The notes beneath the pieces are model-generated. The model did not search any database. It was given only the letters and a program-made list of their open reading frames with translations, and was not told where the DNA came from. Below are positions 8,461-32,540 of a stretch of 64,000 bases of DNA, one piece after another. This DNA comes from the human T2T-CHM13v2.0 reference genome, Homo sapiens, in the NCBI RefSeq assembly GCF_009914755.1, contig NC_060928.1, one strand, 5' to 3'. The first letter of the stretch is position 1. Each line of letters opens with the position of its first letter. The position numbers and the translations under genes were made by a program.

Positions 8461-9216
8461 TATTACAGTGATTTTTAACTGACTCTGGAAACACTTCCTG
8501 GAAGGGAGTTGATGCTCAGTTTTCAGGAGATTTGGGAATTCTCGGTTAGATCATAATTGTTCATTCAGCGCAAATGTGTACTGAATGCCCACTGTGTGCC
8601 CACCCTCTGCCCAATGCCGGAGATACAGTGGTATCCCAGTGCCCTGTCTGCTGGAAAGTGATGAGTGGCCATAAAACAGGATAGGAACATAGAGAATAAC
8701 CAGGATCAGGGGAGGGAGGTGGTGGCTTTAGAGGGGGTAGTTCGACAAGGACTGAAGCAGTAACATTTTGAGACCTCAGTAATGAAGATCTGGAGAGCAG
8801 TGTTCCAGGCAGAAGGAACAAGGGCTCAAGACAGAGACAGCAAAGAGCTCAGTGAGTTACAGCCAGAGAAACAAGCACACTGCATGAATGTGGGAGGTAG
8901 AAGGGCTCCTTGGGGCCACAACCCCAGGCGCTTGGGAAGAGAATGGATTTTAACCTGGGCACAGTGCAAAATGATTGATGTCATGTTATCACCCCTGATT
9001 TAACCAGGTTTCAAAAATTTCCTTACCAGCTAATGGCATGGGGATGTGGCTGGAGTGCAAAGTGACACCCTTCGGCCTGGGTTTAGGTGTCTCTAATCGC
9101 CCTCACCTGCACTTGTGCCATCGCACACTCAAGGCTTAGGGGTTGAGGAAGGAGTGCTGGAAGGGCCCAGAAGGCAGAGCACTGGTGTCTGCACTATCAG
9201 GTTCAAAGCCCAGAAA

Positions 9217-9960
9217 GGCCAGGCATGGAGTGGCTCACGCCTGTAATCCCAACGCTTTGGGGTCTGGAGGATTGCTTGAGGCCAAGAGTTTGAGACCAGC
9301 CTGGCCAACATGGTGAGCCCCTACCTCTATTTAAATTTTCTTAAATTAAAAAATAGACCAGACACAGTGGCTCACACCTGTAATCCCAGCACTTTGGGAG
9401 GCCGAGGGGGGTGGATTACGAGGTCAGGAGTTTGAGACCAGCCTGGCAACATGGTAAAACCCCATCTCTACTAAAAGTACAAACAATTAGCTGGGCATGG
9501 TGGTGGGCGCCTGTGGTCCCAGCTACTTGGGAGGCTGAGGCAAGCAGAATCGCTTGAACCCGGGAGGCGGAGGTTGCAGTGAGCCGAGATCGCGCCATTG
9601 CACTCCAGCCTGGATGACAAGAGCAAAACTCCGTCTCAAAATAATAATAATAATAATAAGGCCGGACGTGGTGGCTCACACCTGCAATCCCTGCACTTTG
9701 GGAGGCCAAGACGGGTGGATCCCTGAGGTCAGGAGTTCAAGACCAGCCGGACCAACATGGAAAAACCCCATCACTACTAAAAATACAAAAATCAGCCGGG
9801 TGTGGTGGCACACGCCTGTGGTCCCAGCTACTCAGAAGGCTGAGGCAGAAGAATCGCTTGAACCTGGGAGGCAGAGGTTGCAGAGCCAAGATCGCGCCAC
9901 TGCAGTCTATCCTGGGTGACAAAGTGAGACTGTCTCAAAATATAAGAATAATAATTAATA
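9217..9960 (+). mobile_element. Tandem Alu cluster: left monomer plus two full AluS
   Basis: Monomer about 9217-9345, Alu about 9356-9659 with (AAT)n tail, Alu about 9660-9960. Confidence 0.9.
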
Positions 9961-10087
9961 AATACATAAAAACAAAAGGAAATGCAAGCAACACATTCTC
10001 AAGGTGGCCACAGGAGGGACAGTAGCAGAAGCCCCAGGCCCCCGGGTGGGAATAGCCCTCGTGGGTGCCTGAAGTGCCCGATGGCAG

Positions 10088-10183
10088 AGATGACAGCCCT
10101 TGGATGCTAGACCTCAGACCTTTGCTGCTGGGTGGTGACCCAGCAGCAAAGGTCTGAGGTCTAGCATCCAAGGGCTGTCATCT
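10088..10183. repeat. Perfect 46-bp inverted repeat with 4-nt spacer
   Basis: 10088-10133 is the exact reverse complement of 10138-10183; loop GGTG; checked base by base. Confidence 0.97.
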
Positions 10184-10246
10184 TAATGACAGCACCGTTT
10201 TCAGTGGAAACCCTTGCATTGCCTATGGGTTTTATTTCTCCTTCTC

Positions 10247-10332
10247 CTTACACTTCTGGGGATTCTAAGTCAATGGCACTGCAGTTTGAAGATGTGGCAG
10301 TGCCATTGACTTAGAGTCACCAGAAGTGTAAG
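10247..10332. repeat. 36-bp inverted repeat (34/36 matched) with 14-nt spacer
   Basis: cttacacttctggggattctaagtcaatggcactgc / gcagtgccattgacttagagtcaccagaagtgtaag. Confidence 0.95.
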
Positions 10333-11053
10333 AACGGTGGCCCCCCCTGAAAGTGTGGCTGATGCATTCCATTTGCCAGGAAAGCCAGACCTTTCCATCC
10401 CTTCCCTCTTTCTTTCCTCTCCTGGTATAAGATCCAGGAATCAGTCCTGAGACTCAGGGTGAACAGAGAGAGAAGGACATAAGCACCTCCCAGGCCTCCC
10501 AGTACCCGCTGTTAGTGTGGGGGCTTCTCTGGCTCCTGGTCAGGCCCCCTGCCCCCACCGGGTGTGCAAAGGAGCAGGGCCTTTTTGCCCACAGATCAGA
10601 CAGGCTGCCCTTTCCCAGGGCTGCGGCCAACCTGCCAGCACCAGGATTCTTCCAGAACAGTTTCCTGAGAGCAGGGCGGTGATTTCAGCAGCAATATACT
10701 CACCAATTATTCATCTCACTGAATTTCATTAGTTTAAAAAATTATGTTTCTCTTTATTATAAAGGCAGGCAATTGACTACTGCCTGAAGAATAAACTCAG
10801 TGACGCTAGAGAGAGCTCGGCAGTATGTGAATAAAAGGTCATTAACAAGCCTAGTTCTTGCCATAAAGACAGGTGAGAGGAAAATAAACTCTCAAGGATG
10901 AGTAAATCACATCTCCTCAGCCATCTTTATCAAATACATGGCAAGATTGCCACTGTATGTGAACAGAACACAAGTAACCGTTTAATGGCTGCTTCCATTC
11001 GGGAGGCTTAGATGATCCAAGTTCCCACATCTTTGTCAACTGGTGCAGTTTTT

Positions 11054-11384
11054 GTTGTTGTTGTTGTTTTGTTTTTGTTTTGTTTTTTTTGAGACAGAGT
11101 TTTGCTCCTATTGCCCAGGTTAGGGTGCAGTGGTGCAATCTCGGCTCGCTGCAACCTCCGCCTTCTGCCTTCCGGTTTCAAGCGATTCTCCTGCCTCAGC
11201 CTCCCAAGTCACTGGAATTACAGGCGTCTGCCACAATGCCCAGCTAATTATTTTTTTGTATTTTTAGTAGAGACAGGGTTTCACCATATTGGTCAGGCTG
11301 GTCTCGAACTGCTGACCTCGTGATCCACCCGCCTCGGCTTCCCAACGTGCTGGCATTACAGGCCTGAGCCACCGAGCCCGGCCC
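11054..11384 (-). mobile_element. AluS-type with 17-bp TSD
   Basis: TSD caactggtgcagttttt at 11037-11053 and 11385-11401. Confidence 0.93.
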
Positions 11385-11754
11385 CAACTGGTGCAGTTTT
11401 TTTCCGGCGTATTGATTTCCTTGGGCAGTTATCGGAAGTGATGTGCACAGCCGGATATTCCCTATCCTTGAGCAATGCAAGAACTCTCACACTGCCGTGA
11501 TGGTTGCCTTCACCGAGACTGGACTCTCAGAACTGGATTGGGAAACAGCGGGGGGAGGGGGTGCATGGCAGATCTAGGAAAACACACTCAGGAAGCTTCC
11601 ATGGACAGGGCCTGGGTGGAGTTGAATAGCAGGAGGAAGGCGGATGGTGAATTTGGAAGAGTAAGGAGGTCAAAGTGGCAATAGGCTACATATGCAACAT
11701 GATGTCTTTTTAATTTGGAGTTTTCTCCTCTTTCTTTTTACAAAATACTCTCTT

Positions 11755-15218: not shown

Positions 15219-15470
15219 ATTAATTAATTGTTAATTAATATCAAATATTAACAGTAATTTGTTAATAGCAATTTTGATATTAATACATTAATTTTATTTT
15301 TAAAATAAATAATGTTAAGTAAATACCTACTTAATAATAAAATTAATTTATTAATATTAATACTTAAATTTATGTTAAAATAAATTTTAAAGTATTTAAT
15401 AAATTATTTTATTGATATTAAAATTAATATTTAATGTTAAATATTATTATTTGATTATTAATAAAATAAA
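15219..15470. repeat. Extremely AT-rich low-complexity tract with short inverted repeats
   Basis: Almost only A/T; attaattaa-ttg-ttaattaat and tattaaca...tgttaata. Confidence 0.9.
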
Positions 15471-29510: not shown

Positions 29511-30359
29511 CATGAATAATCTTTAAGTGAAGAAATCTATGAATGCAAGTAGAATTCTTTGTGGTGAGGAAGAGCACTTGAACATTTTTATTTATTTATT
29601 TTATGGAGAATGTATATAATGCTTGCTATATGCTAAACACTGTTCTAAATGATTGACAACTATATCTCATTTAATCCTCACAACAATCATGTGGGGTAGG
29701 ACTATTATCTTCCCCATTTTGTGGATAAGGAAACATAGGCGCAGTCATGAATCACAGTGGGCGTGTGGCCTATTCTGAGTCTGCTCTCAAACACTACCAT
29801 GCTGCCTTTATTAATTAAATAACTGAAATATAGCAGAAACACAAAATTGGACAGATTTGGGCTGGGGCGAGCCACGGAGAGCTTTCTGGGCAAGGTGAAT
29901 TGAGCACAGATGCTGCAGAGGAGGCAGTGAATCAAATCCAAGTGTGGGAGAGACGAACTGGGAGACTCAGAAGTGGCAAAAGAAATGGAGAGAAGGATGT
30001 GCAGGTGAGAACAGGGATGCGGGGCCCCCAGGATATACAGAGAGAAGCACAGGCACTAGGAGAGACTGACTGAGAAGCCTGGACAAACTGAATGAGGCGT
30101 CCACTGATGGCCCCCAGGGACCCTTCACTACGGCCTGGAATTCAGGAGCCAGCATCCAGCCAGTGGCTTACGCAAAACAAGGGTTGGGGAAGCAAGTGTG
30201 GGCATGAGCCTAAGTATATGTAATTTAAGAGTGAGATGGGGAAAGAGTGAAGAAGGAAAGAGAGAGGAAACACAGATTCTCAGAAATTTGCATTCATAAT
30301 CTCTCATCTCTCCCCTAATCTTAGATTATCAAATATATTCATCGATTAAAACTTCTTTA

Positions 30360-30800
30360 AGAAGTGAGTGGATAAACCAATTGTGGTATGTGCATATAAA
30401 GAAACACTGCTTAGAAATAAAGAGAATGAACAACATTTTGGTTTCTTTCATTCCACTTAATCAAAATGAAATCATTTTCATTCCACTTAATCATTTTGGT
30501 TGATGCAACAACATGGATCAACCTCAAAATGATTAAGTGGAATGAAAGAAACCAAACAAAAAGTATAATCTGTATGATTCCCTTTACATAAAATTTTAGG
30601 CAATGCAAACCAATTGATAGTGACAGAAAACGGGTCAGTGGATGCTTGGGGATGGAGCTGGGGGATGCAGGAAGGACTGGAAGGGAGGGATTACAAAGGG
30701 GTCCAAGGAAGTTTTTGGGGTGATAAGTATATTCCTATCTTCATTGTGGTGATGGTTTCACAGGTGTTCACTAGTGTCAAAATGCATCCAAATTTACACT
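30360..30800 (+). mobile_element. Old L1M 3' fragment
   Basis: gtggataaaccaattgtggtat...atgcaacaacatggat...ctgtatgattcc...gtggtgatggtttcacagg. Confidence 0.8.
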
Positions 30801-31888: not shown

Positions 31889-32189
31889 TTCTTTTTTTTA
31901 TTATTTTTTGAGATGGATTCTTGCTTTGTCGCCCAGGCTGGAGTGCAGTGGGGCAATTTCAGCTCACTGCAACCTCCGCCTCCAAGATTCAAGCAATTCT
32001 GATGCCTGTCTCCCAAGTAGCAGGGATTACTGGCGTGCACCATTATGCCTGGCTAATTTTTGTGCTTTTAGTAAAGACGGGGGTTTGCCATGTAGGCCAG
32101 GCTAGTCTTGAACACCTGGCCTCAAGTGATACACCTGTCTCAGCCTCTTAAAATGCTGGGATTACAGGCGTGAGCCACTGTGCCTGGCC
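31889..32189 (-). mobile_element. AluS-type
   Basis: Full Alu. Confidence 0.9.
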
Positions 32190-32223
32190 AGAAAAGGGAA
32201 ACTTTGAGAAGTTAATGAACATT

Positions 32224-32540
32224 GGCCGGGCAGGGTGGCTCACACCTGTAATCCCAGCACGTCGGGAGGCTGAGCAGAAGGATGGCTTGAGCCCAGGAGT
32301 TTGAGACCAGCTTGGGCAACATGGCAAGACCCCATTCCTACCACCCCCCCCCACACACACACACACACAAACTGGGTGCAGTGGTGCATGCCTGTAGTTC
32401 CAGGTACTCAGGAAGTTGAGGCGGGAGGATTGCTTGAGCCCAGGAGGTCAAGGCTGCAGTGAGCTATGATCACACCACTGTACTCCAGCCTGTGGGACAG
32501 GGCAAGACCCTGTCTCTTAAAAAATCATAAAAATAAAAAA
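32224..32540 (+). mobile_element. AluJ-type with C-run/(CA)n linker
   Basis: Full Alu; middle A-tract replaced by C8 and (CA)n. Confidence 0.9.

What the first reader, a model, noticed from the sequence alone, without database searches (positions are those of the whole stretch)
10088..10332. Two unrelated long hairpins only 63 bp apart: possible nascent miRNA cluster or fold-back hotspot
Seen: the two longest non-Alu inverted repeats I found in 64 kb lie within 245 bp, immediately downstream of a three-Alu tandem block. Chance co-location seems unlikely. Inference: either a bicistronic hairpin RNA, where an optimal hairpin assists processing of a short-loop neighbour as established for miR-144/miR-451, or a site where fork stalling repeatedly triggers template switching.
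Basis: inference. Interest (0 to 1): 0.78.

Follow-up and report, generated by a model that had tools for sequence, protein, structure and literature searches.

The report
Two template-switch hairpins in TRIM2 intron
Two strong, unrelated hairpin-forming sequences lie side by side in the first intron of human TRIM2; they look like scars of DNA-copying slips, the known raw material for new microRNAs, and nothing yet shows that they do anything.

Summary
IR1 has 46-nt arms, 100% complementary, with a 4-nt spacer (10088-10183). IR2 has 36-nt arms, 34 of 36 complementary, with a 14-nt spacer (10247-10332). They lie 63 nt apart. They are the two longest short-spacer inverted repeats in complex, non-Alu sequence of the window. 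About 262 kb of other human DNA held no repeat with arms of 30 nt or more.

Both are single-copy in the T2T genome. A control search found 72-79% identical repeat copies, so the method can see old families. The two hairpins share no sequence and match no Rfam family at threshold.

The best reading is short-range template-switch or fold-back copying, a known mutation class. It made over 6,000 miRNA-sized hairpins in primate genes, 0.9% of them annotated miRNAs (PMC10710096). A polarised example lies 20 kb away in this window.

IR2 has Microprocessor-friendly geometry but lacks the usual sequence motifs. IR1's stem is too long and its loop too small. No expression data could be consulted. I could not decide whether the adjacency reflects one complex event, a hairpin-induced second event, or chance. 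No primate outgroups were available.

The parts
10088..10133 (.). IR1 left arm (46 nt)
   Evidence: 100% complementary to 10138-10183
10134..10137 (.). IR1 spacer GGTG (4 nt)
   Evidence: it forms the loop of the 47-bp RNA stem, which includes a terminal G-U
10138..10183 (.). IR1 right arm (46 nt)
   Evidence: single-copy in the own genome
10174..10193 (.). Mini inverted repeat at the right edge of IR1: an 8-bp stem (10174-10181 with 10186-10193) and a 4-nt turn. It re-copies the first 8 nt of the IR1 arm motif in forward orientation (also present at 10090-10097).
   Evidence: Exact matches. The empirical chance of such a mini-hairpin abutting a given boundary is about 0.005, a post hoc figure.
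10184..10246 (.). 63-nt linker between the hairpins
   Evidence: no significant similarity to the arms or flanks
10213..10235 (.). Possible third inverted patch: a 19 of 23 inverted match to 9966-9988
   Evidence: I3; p about 0.014 in 500 dinucleotide shuffles, one of 4 tests. Weak.
10193..10199 (.). 7-nt segment complementary to 10333-10339, the bases that directly continue IR2's right arm
   Evidence: Position. The pair forms a helix enclosing the linker and IR2 in the 341-nt fold. Its significance was not established.
10247..10282 (.). IR2 left arm (36 nt)
   Evidence: 34 of 36 complementary to 10297-10332
10283..10296 (.). IR2 spacer (14 nt)
10297..10332 (.). IR2 right arm (36 nt)
9218..9978 (+). 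Upstream Alu block: one monomer-like piece and two full Alus with an A-rich tail
   Evidence: SRP/Alu-type Rfam hits and the sequence itself
11054..11384 (-). Downstream inverted Alu, flanked by a 17-nt target-site duplication (11037-11053 and 11385-11401). With the + Alus it brackets the hairpins.

Best explanation
Both inverted repeats are most likely products of short-range template switching, also called fold-back copying. During germline DNA synthesis in a primate ancestor, a nascent 3' end left its template and re-annealed a few bases back on the complementary or its own strand. It copied 46 nt (IR1) or 36 nt (IR2) in reverse-complement orientation and then returned.

For IR1 the turn is 4 nt. 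A 3-nt complement (GGT/ACC) flanks the spacer and could have primed the switch. An 8-nt re-inverted patch after a second 4-nt turn suggests a second, abortive switch before the return.

The result is neutral intronic DNA that can fold in two ways. As single-stranded DNA it forms very stable hairpins that could stall forks. As sense-strand TRIM2 pre-mRNA it forms two adjacent hairpins.

What is shown: the structures, their uniqueness in the genome, their stability, and the absence of family membership. What is inferred: the mutational mechanism, the direction of copying, and neutrality.

My odds for the cause of the adjacency are about 30% one complex multi-switch event, 25% a first hairpin that promoted the second event, and 45% chance.
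For: (1) Structure: perfect 46-nt arms with a 4-nt spacer, and 36-nt arms at 94% with a 14-nt spacer, both in complex sequence.

(2) Not a repeat family: the T2T genome search with 10060-10360 returned only the locus itself and its own inverted self-matches, with 1 first-look candidate. The right flank is unique up to the next Alu. The same tool found 373 candidates at 72-79% identity for an old repeat, so it can see diverged families.

(3) No target-site duplication or shared termini flank the arms (read). The flanks, linker and arms are unrelated: 20 comparisons gave 2 at p<=0.05, about the number expected by chance.

(4) Both meet the published operational class. That class requires an inverted fragment of at least 15 nt at 80% identity or more, and its 'miRNA-like' subclass a stem of 30-55 bases. 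The same paper counts 53,666 putative events in genic regions on the human lineage, 31,007 making new stems and 6,054 of miRNA size (PMC10710096, Results and Methods read).

(5) A polarised example lies in the window. At 30437-30498, two inverted copies of 30525-30556 sit in a block of about 60 nt that 11 of 11 paralogous repeat copies lack.

(6) The mini inverted repeat abutting IR1 has an empirical p of about 0.005. It fits iterative switching.

(7) Rarity: 0 comparable repeats in about 262 kb of other human DNA plus the rest of the window.
Against: No outgroup sequence could be consulted, so the defining test was not done. That test is an ancestor lacking the inverted copy.

The supplement of Walker et al. 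2021 (PMC7954356) lists no chr4 event at my estimated GRCh38 position. The position rests on a recalled coordinate offset, and that survey covers only recent great-ape events.

PMC10710096 reports that template-switch events are depleted in introns and show no distance bias to transposable elements. This speaks against an Alu-driven hotspot.

The small supporting patches (8-nt, 7-nt and 19 of 23) were found post hoc, and two of them are weak.

The mismatch counts (0 of 46 against 2 of 36) do not show different ages (p = 0.19) and allow ages anywhere up to tens of millions of years.

Neutrality is assumed, not tested.
Confidence: 0.6

Rival explanations
1. The same inverted copies arose during double-strand-break repair rather than at a replication fork. 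A resected 3' tail snapped back on itself, primed synthesis, possibly twice, and was then joined to the other end. This is synthesis-dependent microhomology-mediated or polymerase-theta end joining.
For: Both turns are 4 nt (GGTG and CTTA), a 3-nt complement flanks the first, and a short abortive second copy follows. This pattern fits iterative snap-back synthesis. Foldback-templated inverted insertions at breaks are described in PMC11724301 and PMC5728401 (search listing and abstract openings only).
Against: The abstract of PMC11724301 gives most such insertions as about 5-34 bp. A 46-nt perfect copy is at or beyond that range. The present sequence alone cannot separate this from a replicative switch.
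Confidence: 0.2
2. The pair is a nascent or unannotated bicistronic miRNA-like locus, transcribed within sense-strand TRIM2 pre-mRNA. IR2 recruits Microprocessor and assists the suboptimal IR1, as miR-144 assists miR-451.
For: Both hairpins lie on the sense strand of an intron of an expressed gene (hub table). IR2 has a 36-bp stem and a 14-nt loop. Helpers need a stem of about 35 bp and a loop of at least 10 nt (PMC10576077 sections 5 and 6). IR1 has a 4-nt loop, a suboptimal feature in the same paper, and a CNNC at flank position 7. The hairpins are 63 nt apart and both persist in the 341-nt fold. In PMC10710096, 81 of 99 intragenic template-switch miRNA loci are sense-intronic.
Against: No Rfam family reaches its gathering score: the best hits are generic plant hairpin models, 49.9 against 200 and 42 against 96. 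RefSeq lists no MIR gene in the window (hub table). IR2 lacks the basal UG and apical UGU/GUG, and its first CNNC is at flank position 9 rather than about 5-7 (motif positions recalled). IR1's 46-47-bp stem is 11-12 bp over the optimum, and a 5-bp stem insertion already attenuates processing. The base rate is 57 of 6,054, or 0.9%. The file sd01 of PMC10710096 does not mention TRIM2.
Confidence: 0.07
3. One or both hairpins are relics of small palindromic mobile elements (MITE-like DNA transposons).
For: Long, nearly perfect terminal inverted repeats with a short centre resemble foldback elements or MITEs.
Against: Single-copy in the whole T2T genome, although the search detects 72-79% identical repeats. 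No target-site duplication and no shared termini. A perfect 46-nt arm pair is not expected of the ancient DNA transposons of primates (recalled background knowledge). The control query had about 165 nt of homology, so a 96-nt element at about 75% identity could be missed.
Confidence: 0.04
4. IR1 is a private, cell-line or assembly-level inverted duplication of CHM13, not a fixed human feature.
For: Perfect arm identity is compatible with a very recent origin. I could compare no second human assembly.
Against: Perfect identity over 92 bases is also compatible with ages up to about 33-65 My at the assumed rates. Nothing in the sequence suggests an assembly join. IR2 already carries two mismatches.
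Confidence: 0.04

Closest known systems
Template-switch-mutation (TSM) hairpins of primate genomes (Loytynoja and Goldman 2017; Monttinen, Frilander and Loytynoja 2023, PMC10710096)
   Same: A single-copy, perfect or near-perfect inverted copy of adjacent sequence. Stems are within the 30-55 base 'miRNA-like' class. [quoted passage not shown]
   Different: Here two unrelated hairpins lie 63 nt apart. The ancestral state was not reconstructed, so membership is inferred. IR1's 46-nt perfect copy with a 4-nt turn is longer than the 28-base example described in the text I read, though shorter than the 83-base example.
miR-144/miR-451 cluster assistance (PMC10576077)
   Same: Two hairpins on one transcript lie within about 100 nt of each other. 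One has helper-like geometry (stem about 35 bp, loop at least 10 nt) and one has a 4-nt loop.
   Different: The short-loop hairpin has a 46-47-bp stem, whereas the miR-451 series tested 18-24 bp. There is no evidence of processing, no conservation data, and no annotated miRNA. The usual sequence motifs are missing from IR2.
Snap-back or foldback templated inverted insertions at DNA breaks (PMC5728401, PMC11724301; abstracts only)
   Same: An inverted copy of immediately adjacent sequence with a very short turn and a possible second round of copying.
   Different: The reported insertions are mostly about 5-34 bp, against 46 and 36 nt here. No break junction can be identified without the ancestral sequence.
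Cruciform-prone short inverted repeats and large perfect inverted repeats of the human genome (PMC13155455)
   Same: IR1 is a perfect inverted repeat with a spacer of 8 nt or less, the class catalogued there.
   Different: The ten largest human examples have arms of 80-140 bp and are mostly AT-rich, with GC content 1-37%. IR1's arms are 54% GC and are shorter. That catalogue does not consider neighbouring pairs.

Membership tests
Template-switch-mutation hairpin | Inverted fragment of at least 15 nt, at least 80% identical to nearby sequence | tested here: met
   46 of 46 and 34 of 36; criterion read in PMC10710096 Methods
Template-switch-mutation hairpin | The parent (ancestral) sequence lacks the inverted copy, and the change is better explained by an inverted than by a forward alignment | not testable with these tools
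   No primate or other mammalian genome is held. The own-genome search found no paralogue to polarise with.
Template-switch-mutation hairpin | Not a simple or low-complexity repeat and not part of an interspersed repeat | tested here: met
   Distinct-trinucleotide fractions of the arms are 0.59 and 0.76, with AT 46% and 53%. Single-copy. Not in the hub's listed masked stretches (longest stretches only).
Template-switch-mutation hairpin | 'miRNA-like' subclass: new stem of 30-55 bases with the loop central | tested here: met
   Stems of 46 and 36 with central loops; criterion
Canonical pri-miRNA / miRNA gene | Stem of about 35 bp with an apical loop of at least 10 nt | tested here: inconclusive
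   IR2 meets it (36 bp, 14 nt). IR1 does not (46-47 bp, 4 nt). Requirement read in PMC10576077.
Canonical pri-miRNA / miRNA gene | Auxiliary motifs: basal UG, apical UGU/GUG, CNNC downstream (positions recalled from the literature) | tested here: not met
   IR2 on the + strand has none at the expected positions. IR1 on the + strand has a GUG at the loop and a CNNC at flank position 7 only. These motifs are auxiliary and many miRNAs lack some of them.
Canonical pri-miRNA / miRNA gene | Discrete ~22-nt reads, with Drosha and Dicer dependence | not testable with these tools
   No small-RNA data are available here
Canonical pri-miRNA / miRNA gene | Match to a curated miRNA family or annotation | tested here: not met
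   All Rfam hits over the hairpins are far below their gathering scores. No MIR gene appears in the RefSeq table supplied by the hub.
miR-144/451-type assisted cluster | Optimal helper hairpin next to a suboptimal one on the same transcript | tested here: inconclusive
   The geometry is compatible. It is unknown whether either hairpin is a Microprocessor substrate.
miR-144/451-type assisted cluster | Processing of the suboptimal hairpin depends on its neighbour (and on ERH/SAFB2) | not testable with these tools
   Needs a minigene experiment
MITE / palindromic DNA transposon | Multiple related copies in the genome | tested here: not met
   Only self matches. A positive control shows sensitivity to 72-79% identical copies.
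MITE / palindromic DNA transposon | Target-site duplication flanking the terminal inverted repeats | tested here: not met
   No direct repeat directly flanks either arm pair (reading; the direct matches of 8 nt or more do not flank the arms)

The most novel reading that the evidence does not exclude
The locus is a self-propagating fold-back site that is turning into a gene. One template switch created a fork-stalling perfect palindrome inside the spacer of an inverted Alu pair. That palindrome provoked a second, unrelated switch next door. The resulting pair now forms a two-hairpin unit in TRIM2 pre-mRNA, in which the Microprocessor-shaped IR2 can assist the long, short-looped IR1. This would be de novo birth of a miRNA cluster, rather than a single miRNA, through template switching.
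Probability: 0.07. Interest if true: 0.65.

Novelty: new member of a known kind. Interest (0 to 1): 0.3.

Why it matters
If the reading is right, this is one more example of a known mutation class, notable only for two unrelated hairpins lying side by side.

It would matter more if the adjacency is causal. A demonstration that one template-switch hairpin raises the local rate of the next would give a mechanism for the clustering of complex mutations and for the birth of miRNA clusters.

The locus is also a convenient natural test substrate. It offers a 96-bp GC-balanced perfect palindrome next to a hairpin of near-ideal pri-miRNA geometry, in an intron of a gene expressed in brain (the expression pattern is recalled, not checked here).

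Tried and rejected
Rfam scan of 9000-11500 on both strands at E<=10. Over the hairpins it gave only generic long-hairpin hits far below their gathering scores (MIR868 49.9 against 200, MIR831 45.9 against 100, MIR6426 42 against 96). The other hits are Alu/SRP-derived.

Own-genome searches for copies of the hairpins and of the right flank found only the locus itself and Alu-tail hits.

Smith-Waterman comparison of left flank, IR1 arm, linker, IR2 arm and right flank in both orientations against shuffles. Of 20 comparisons, 2 reached p<=0.05 (an 11-nt and a 9-nt match), about the chance number. I found no sign that the hairpins are related or that the flanks are duplicated.

Test for different ages from the mismatch counts: not significant (p = 0.19).

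Literature look-ups for this locus:
- Of the 49 papers holding 'TRIM2', 'intron' and 'novel miRNA', 10 were listed and none concerns this site by title. The one I opened mentions only TRIM28.
- The event tables of Walker 2021 hold no chr4 entry with the number prefixes 15316-15318 or 15409. My GRCh38 position is an estimate from a recalled offset.
- The supplement of Loytynoja 2022 could not be read.
- File sd01 of PMC10710096 holds no 'TRIM2', 'chr4' or '15317'. Its PDF supplements cannot be read here and may bear on the claim.
- I did not search the literature for the hairpin sequences themselves.

The background rests on 200 kb of random DNA, 62 kb of other loci and the window.

The catalogue in PMC13155455 gives only the ten largest perfect human inverted repeats (arms 80-140 bp). 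It does not rank a 46-bp one.

Full report
WHAT IS THERE

IR1 has 46-nt arms (10088-10133 and 10138-10183) that are 100% complementary around a 4-nt spacer. IR2 has 36-nt arms (10247-10282 and 10297-10332) with 34 of 36 positions complementary around a 14-nt spacer. The two IR2 mismatches lie 3 nt apart, at 10260 and 10263. A 63-nt linker (10184-10246) separates the hairpins.

As RNA, the + strand folds at -101.6 kcal/mol (IR1) and -61.8 kcal/mol (IR2), with z-scores of -18 and -11. None of 200 shuffles folded as well, and the - strand is equivalent. Both hairpins survive in a 341-nt context fold. As single-stranded DNA the energies are -64 and -38 kcal/mol.

SURROUNDINGS

Upstream lies a + strand Alu block: one monomer-like piece and two full Alus, 9218 to about 9978. 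IR1 begins about 110 nt after its A-rich tail.

It carries a perfect 17-nt target-site duplication and is 77-87% complementary to the upstream Alus. The hairpins therefore sit inside the ~1.1-kb unique spacer of an inverted Alu pair. The locus is in TRIM2 intron 1 on the sense strand (hub table).

IS IT MORE THAN CHANCE?

In the window-wide scan (10 pairs), only an Alu-Alu pair at 83% identity has longer arms. I then scanned with my own routine.
- With arms >=25 nt, identity >=88% and spacer <=30 nt, the window yields IR1, IR2 and one 96% AT repeat.
- Twenty random 10-kb pieces of the same genome yield only a (TA)n tract and one 22-26-nt repeat.
- Another 62 kb of unrelated loci yields one 26-nt repeat.

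So about 262 kb of other DNA, plus the remainder of the window, holds no complex-sequence repeat with arms of 30 nt or more.

From the 200 kb plus the window, the 95% upper bound on density is 1.1e-5 per bp. A second such repeat within +-250 bp of a given one then has probability of at most 0.6%. Across 3.1 Gb, the same arithmetic gives about 0.8, 7 or 100 chance pairs for densities of 1e-6, 3e-6 or 1.1e-5 per bp. The pair is locally improbable but not impossible in a genome-wide scan.

WHAT IT IS NOT

Not a repeat family. The T2T genome search with 10060-10360 found only the locus and its own inverted self-matches, from a single first-look candidate. The right flank is unique up to the next Alu. 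The tool can detect old families: a query from 30330-30680 returned 373 candidates, and the 40 scored were 72-79% identical. A 96-nt element at that divergence could still be missed.

Not a transposon by its ends. No target-site duplication flanks either arm pair.

Not two copies of one thing. Flanks, linker and arms show no similarity beyond chance.

Not a curated RNA family. Rfam hits over the hairpins are generic long-hairpin models far below threshold. RefSeq lists no MIR gene in the window (hub table).

MOST LIKELY ORIGIN

The features match short-range template-switch mutations. In PMC10710096 I read the Results and Methods. Such events are called from an inverted fragment of at least 15 nt at 80% identity or more. 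[quoted passage not shown] On the primate-to-human lineage they gave 53,666 putative events in gene regions, of which 31,007 made new stems and 6,054 were of miRNA size (stem 30-55). Both IR1 and IR2 fall in that size class.

I could not run the defining test, an ancestor without the copy, because no primate genome is held. Membership is therefore inferred.

Two pieces of internal evidence help.

First, the window holds a polarised example of the same mutation type. At 30437-30498, two overlapping perfect inverted copies (27 and 23 nt) of 30525-30556 sit in a block of about 60 nt. All 11 aligned paralogous copies of the surrounding old repeat lack that block. The source arm is therefore ancestral and the inverted copies are derived, in more than one round of copying.

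Second, IR1 has a comparable zig-zag. Directly after its right arm comes a second 4-nt turn and then an 8-nt forward re-copy of the arm's start, at 10186-10193. This forms an 8-bp mini-hairpin with 10174-10181. Such mini-hairpins occur at 4.5e-4 per bp in 264 kb. One abutting a given boundary therefore has p of about 0.005, which is a post hoc figure.

Two weaker patches point the same way.
- A 7-nt segment (10193-10199) is complementary to the bases that continue IR2's right arm (10333-10339). The two pair in the context fold.
- A 19 of 23 inverted match links the linker (10213-10235) to 9966-9988, with p about 0.014 in one of four tests.

Together these allow a patchwork made by one multi-switch event, but they do not establish it.

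A break-repair variant would leave the same scar and cannot be separated here. In that variant a resected end snaps back and primes synthesis (PMC5728401 and PMC11724301, abstracts only). The reported sizes, mostly 5-34 bp, make it somewhat less likely for a 46-nt copy.

AGE

The counts are 0 mismatches in 46 pairs and 2 in 36. Ages are not distinguishable (Fisher p = 0.19). At assumed rates of 0.5-1e-9 per site per year, IR1 is younger than about 33-65 My (95% bound). IR2 has a maximum-likelihood age of 28-56 My, with an interval from 3 to 200 My. The rates are recalled. The calculation assumes that the mismatches arose after the event.

WHAT IT MIGHT DO

At the DNA level, IR1 is a 96-bp GC-balanced palindrome interrupted only by its 4-nt spacer. 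That makes it a strong hairpin or cruciform former. Whether it stalls forks here is untested. PMC10710096 reports no distance bias of template-switch events to transposable elements and a depletion in introns, which argues against an Alu-driven hotspot.

At the RNA level, both hairpins are transcribed within TRIM2 pre-mRNA. IR2 (36 bp, 14-nt loop) has the geometry that PMC10576077 finds necessary for efficient Microprocessor cleavage and for helping a neighbour: a stem of about 35 bp and a loop of at least 10 nt. It lacks the basal UG, the apical UGU/GUG and a CNNC at the expected distance (motif positions recalled).

IR1 has a 4-nt loop, which is suboptimal in that paper, and a stem 11-12 bp over the optimum. 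A 5-bp stem insertion already attenuates processing.

The base rate for such hairpins being annotated miRNAs is 57 of 6,054, or 0.9%. I found no expression evidence and could not look for any.

VERDICT

Its best explanation is a known mutation class, so I rate it a new member of a known kind. 'Repeated triggering' and the miRNA-cluster idea remain untested, and I give the miRNA-cluster idea about 7%.

Noticed in passing
window 30437-30556: Two overlapping perfect inverted copies (27 nt at 30437-30463 and 23 nt at 30476-30498) of the downstream segment 30525-30556. They sit in a block of about 60 nt that 11 of 11 aligned paralogous copies of the surrounding old interspersed repeat lack. This is a polarised, multi-round templated inverted insertion. 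The repeat looks like an old L1 3' end; that name is recalled and comes from no call.
   Followed up: yes
window 11037-11401: A - strand Alu (11054-11384) with a perfect 17-nt target-site duplication. With the + strand Alus at 9218-9978 it forms an inverted Alu pair (77-87% complementary segments) whose ~1.1-kb spacer holds both hairpins.
   Followed up: partly
window 32139-32274: Head-to-head Alu ends: 52-nt arms, 83% complementary, only 32 nt apart. This is a closely spaced inverted Alu junction.
   Followed up: no
window 15274-15371: AT-rich (96% AT) inverted repeats of 27-30 nt with spacers of about 27 nt, in low-complexity sequence.
   Followed up: no
window 9488-9539 and 9793-9844: Alu-internal matches to the Rfam mir-1268 model (74.5 and 47.3 bits against a gathering score of 83), and other Alu-derived miRNA-family hits (mir-1285, mir-3135, mir-619, mir-1972). 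These are expected for Alu sequence.
   Followed up: no
L030 8814-8891 and L045 2487-2591: The only complex-sequence inverted repeats in the background sample: arms of 22-26 nt at 88-96% identity, with spacers of 26-53 nt. They may be small template-switch products elsewhere in the genome.
   Followed up: no
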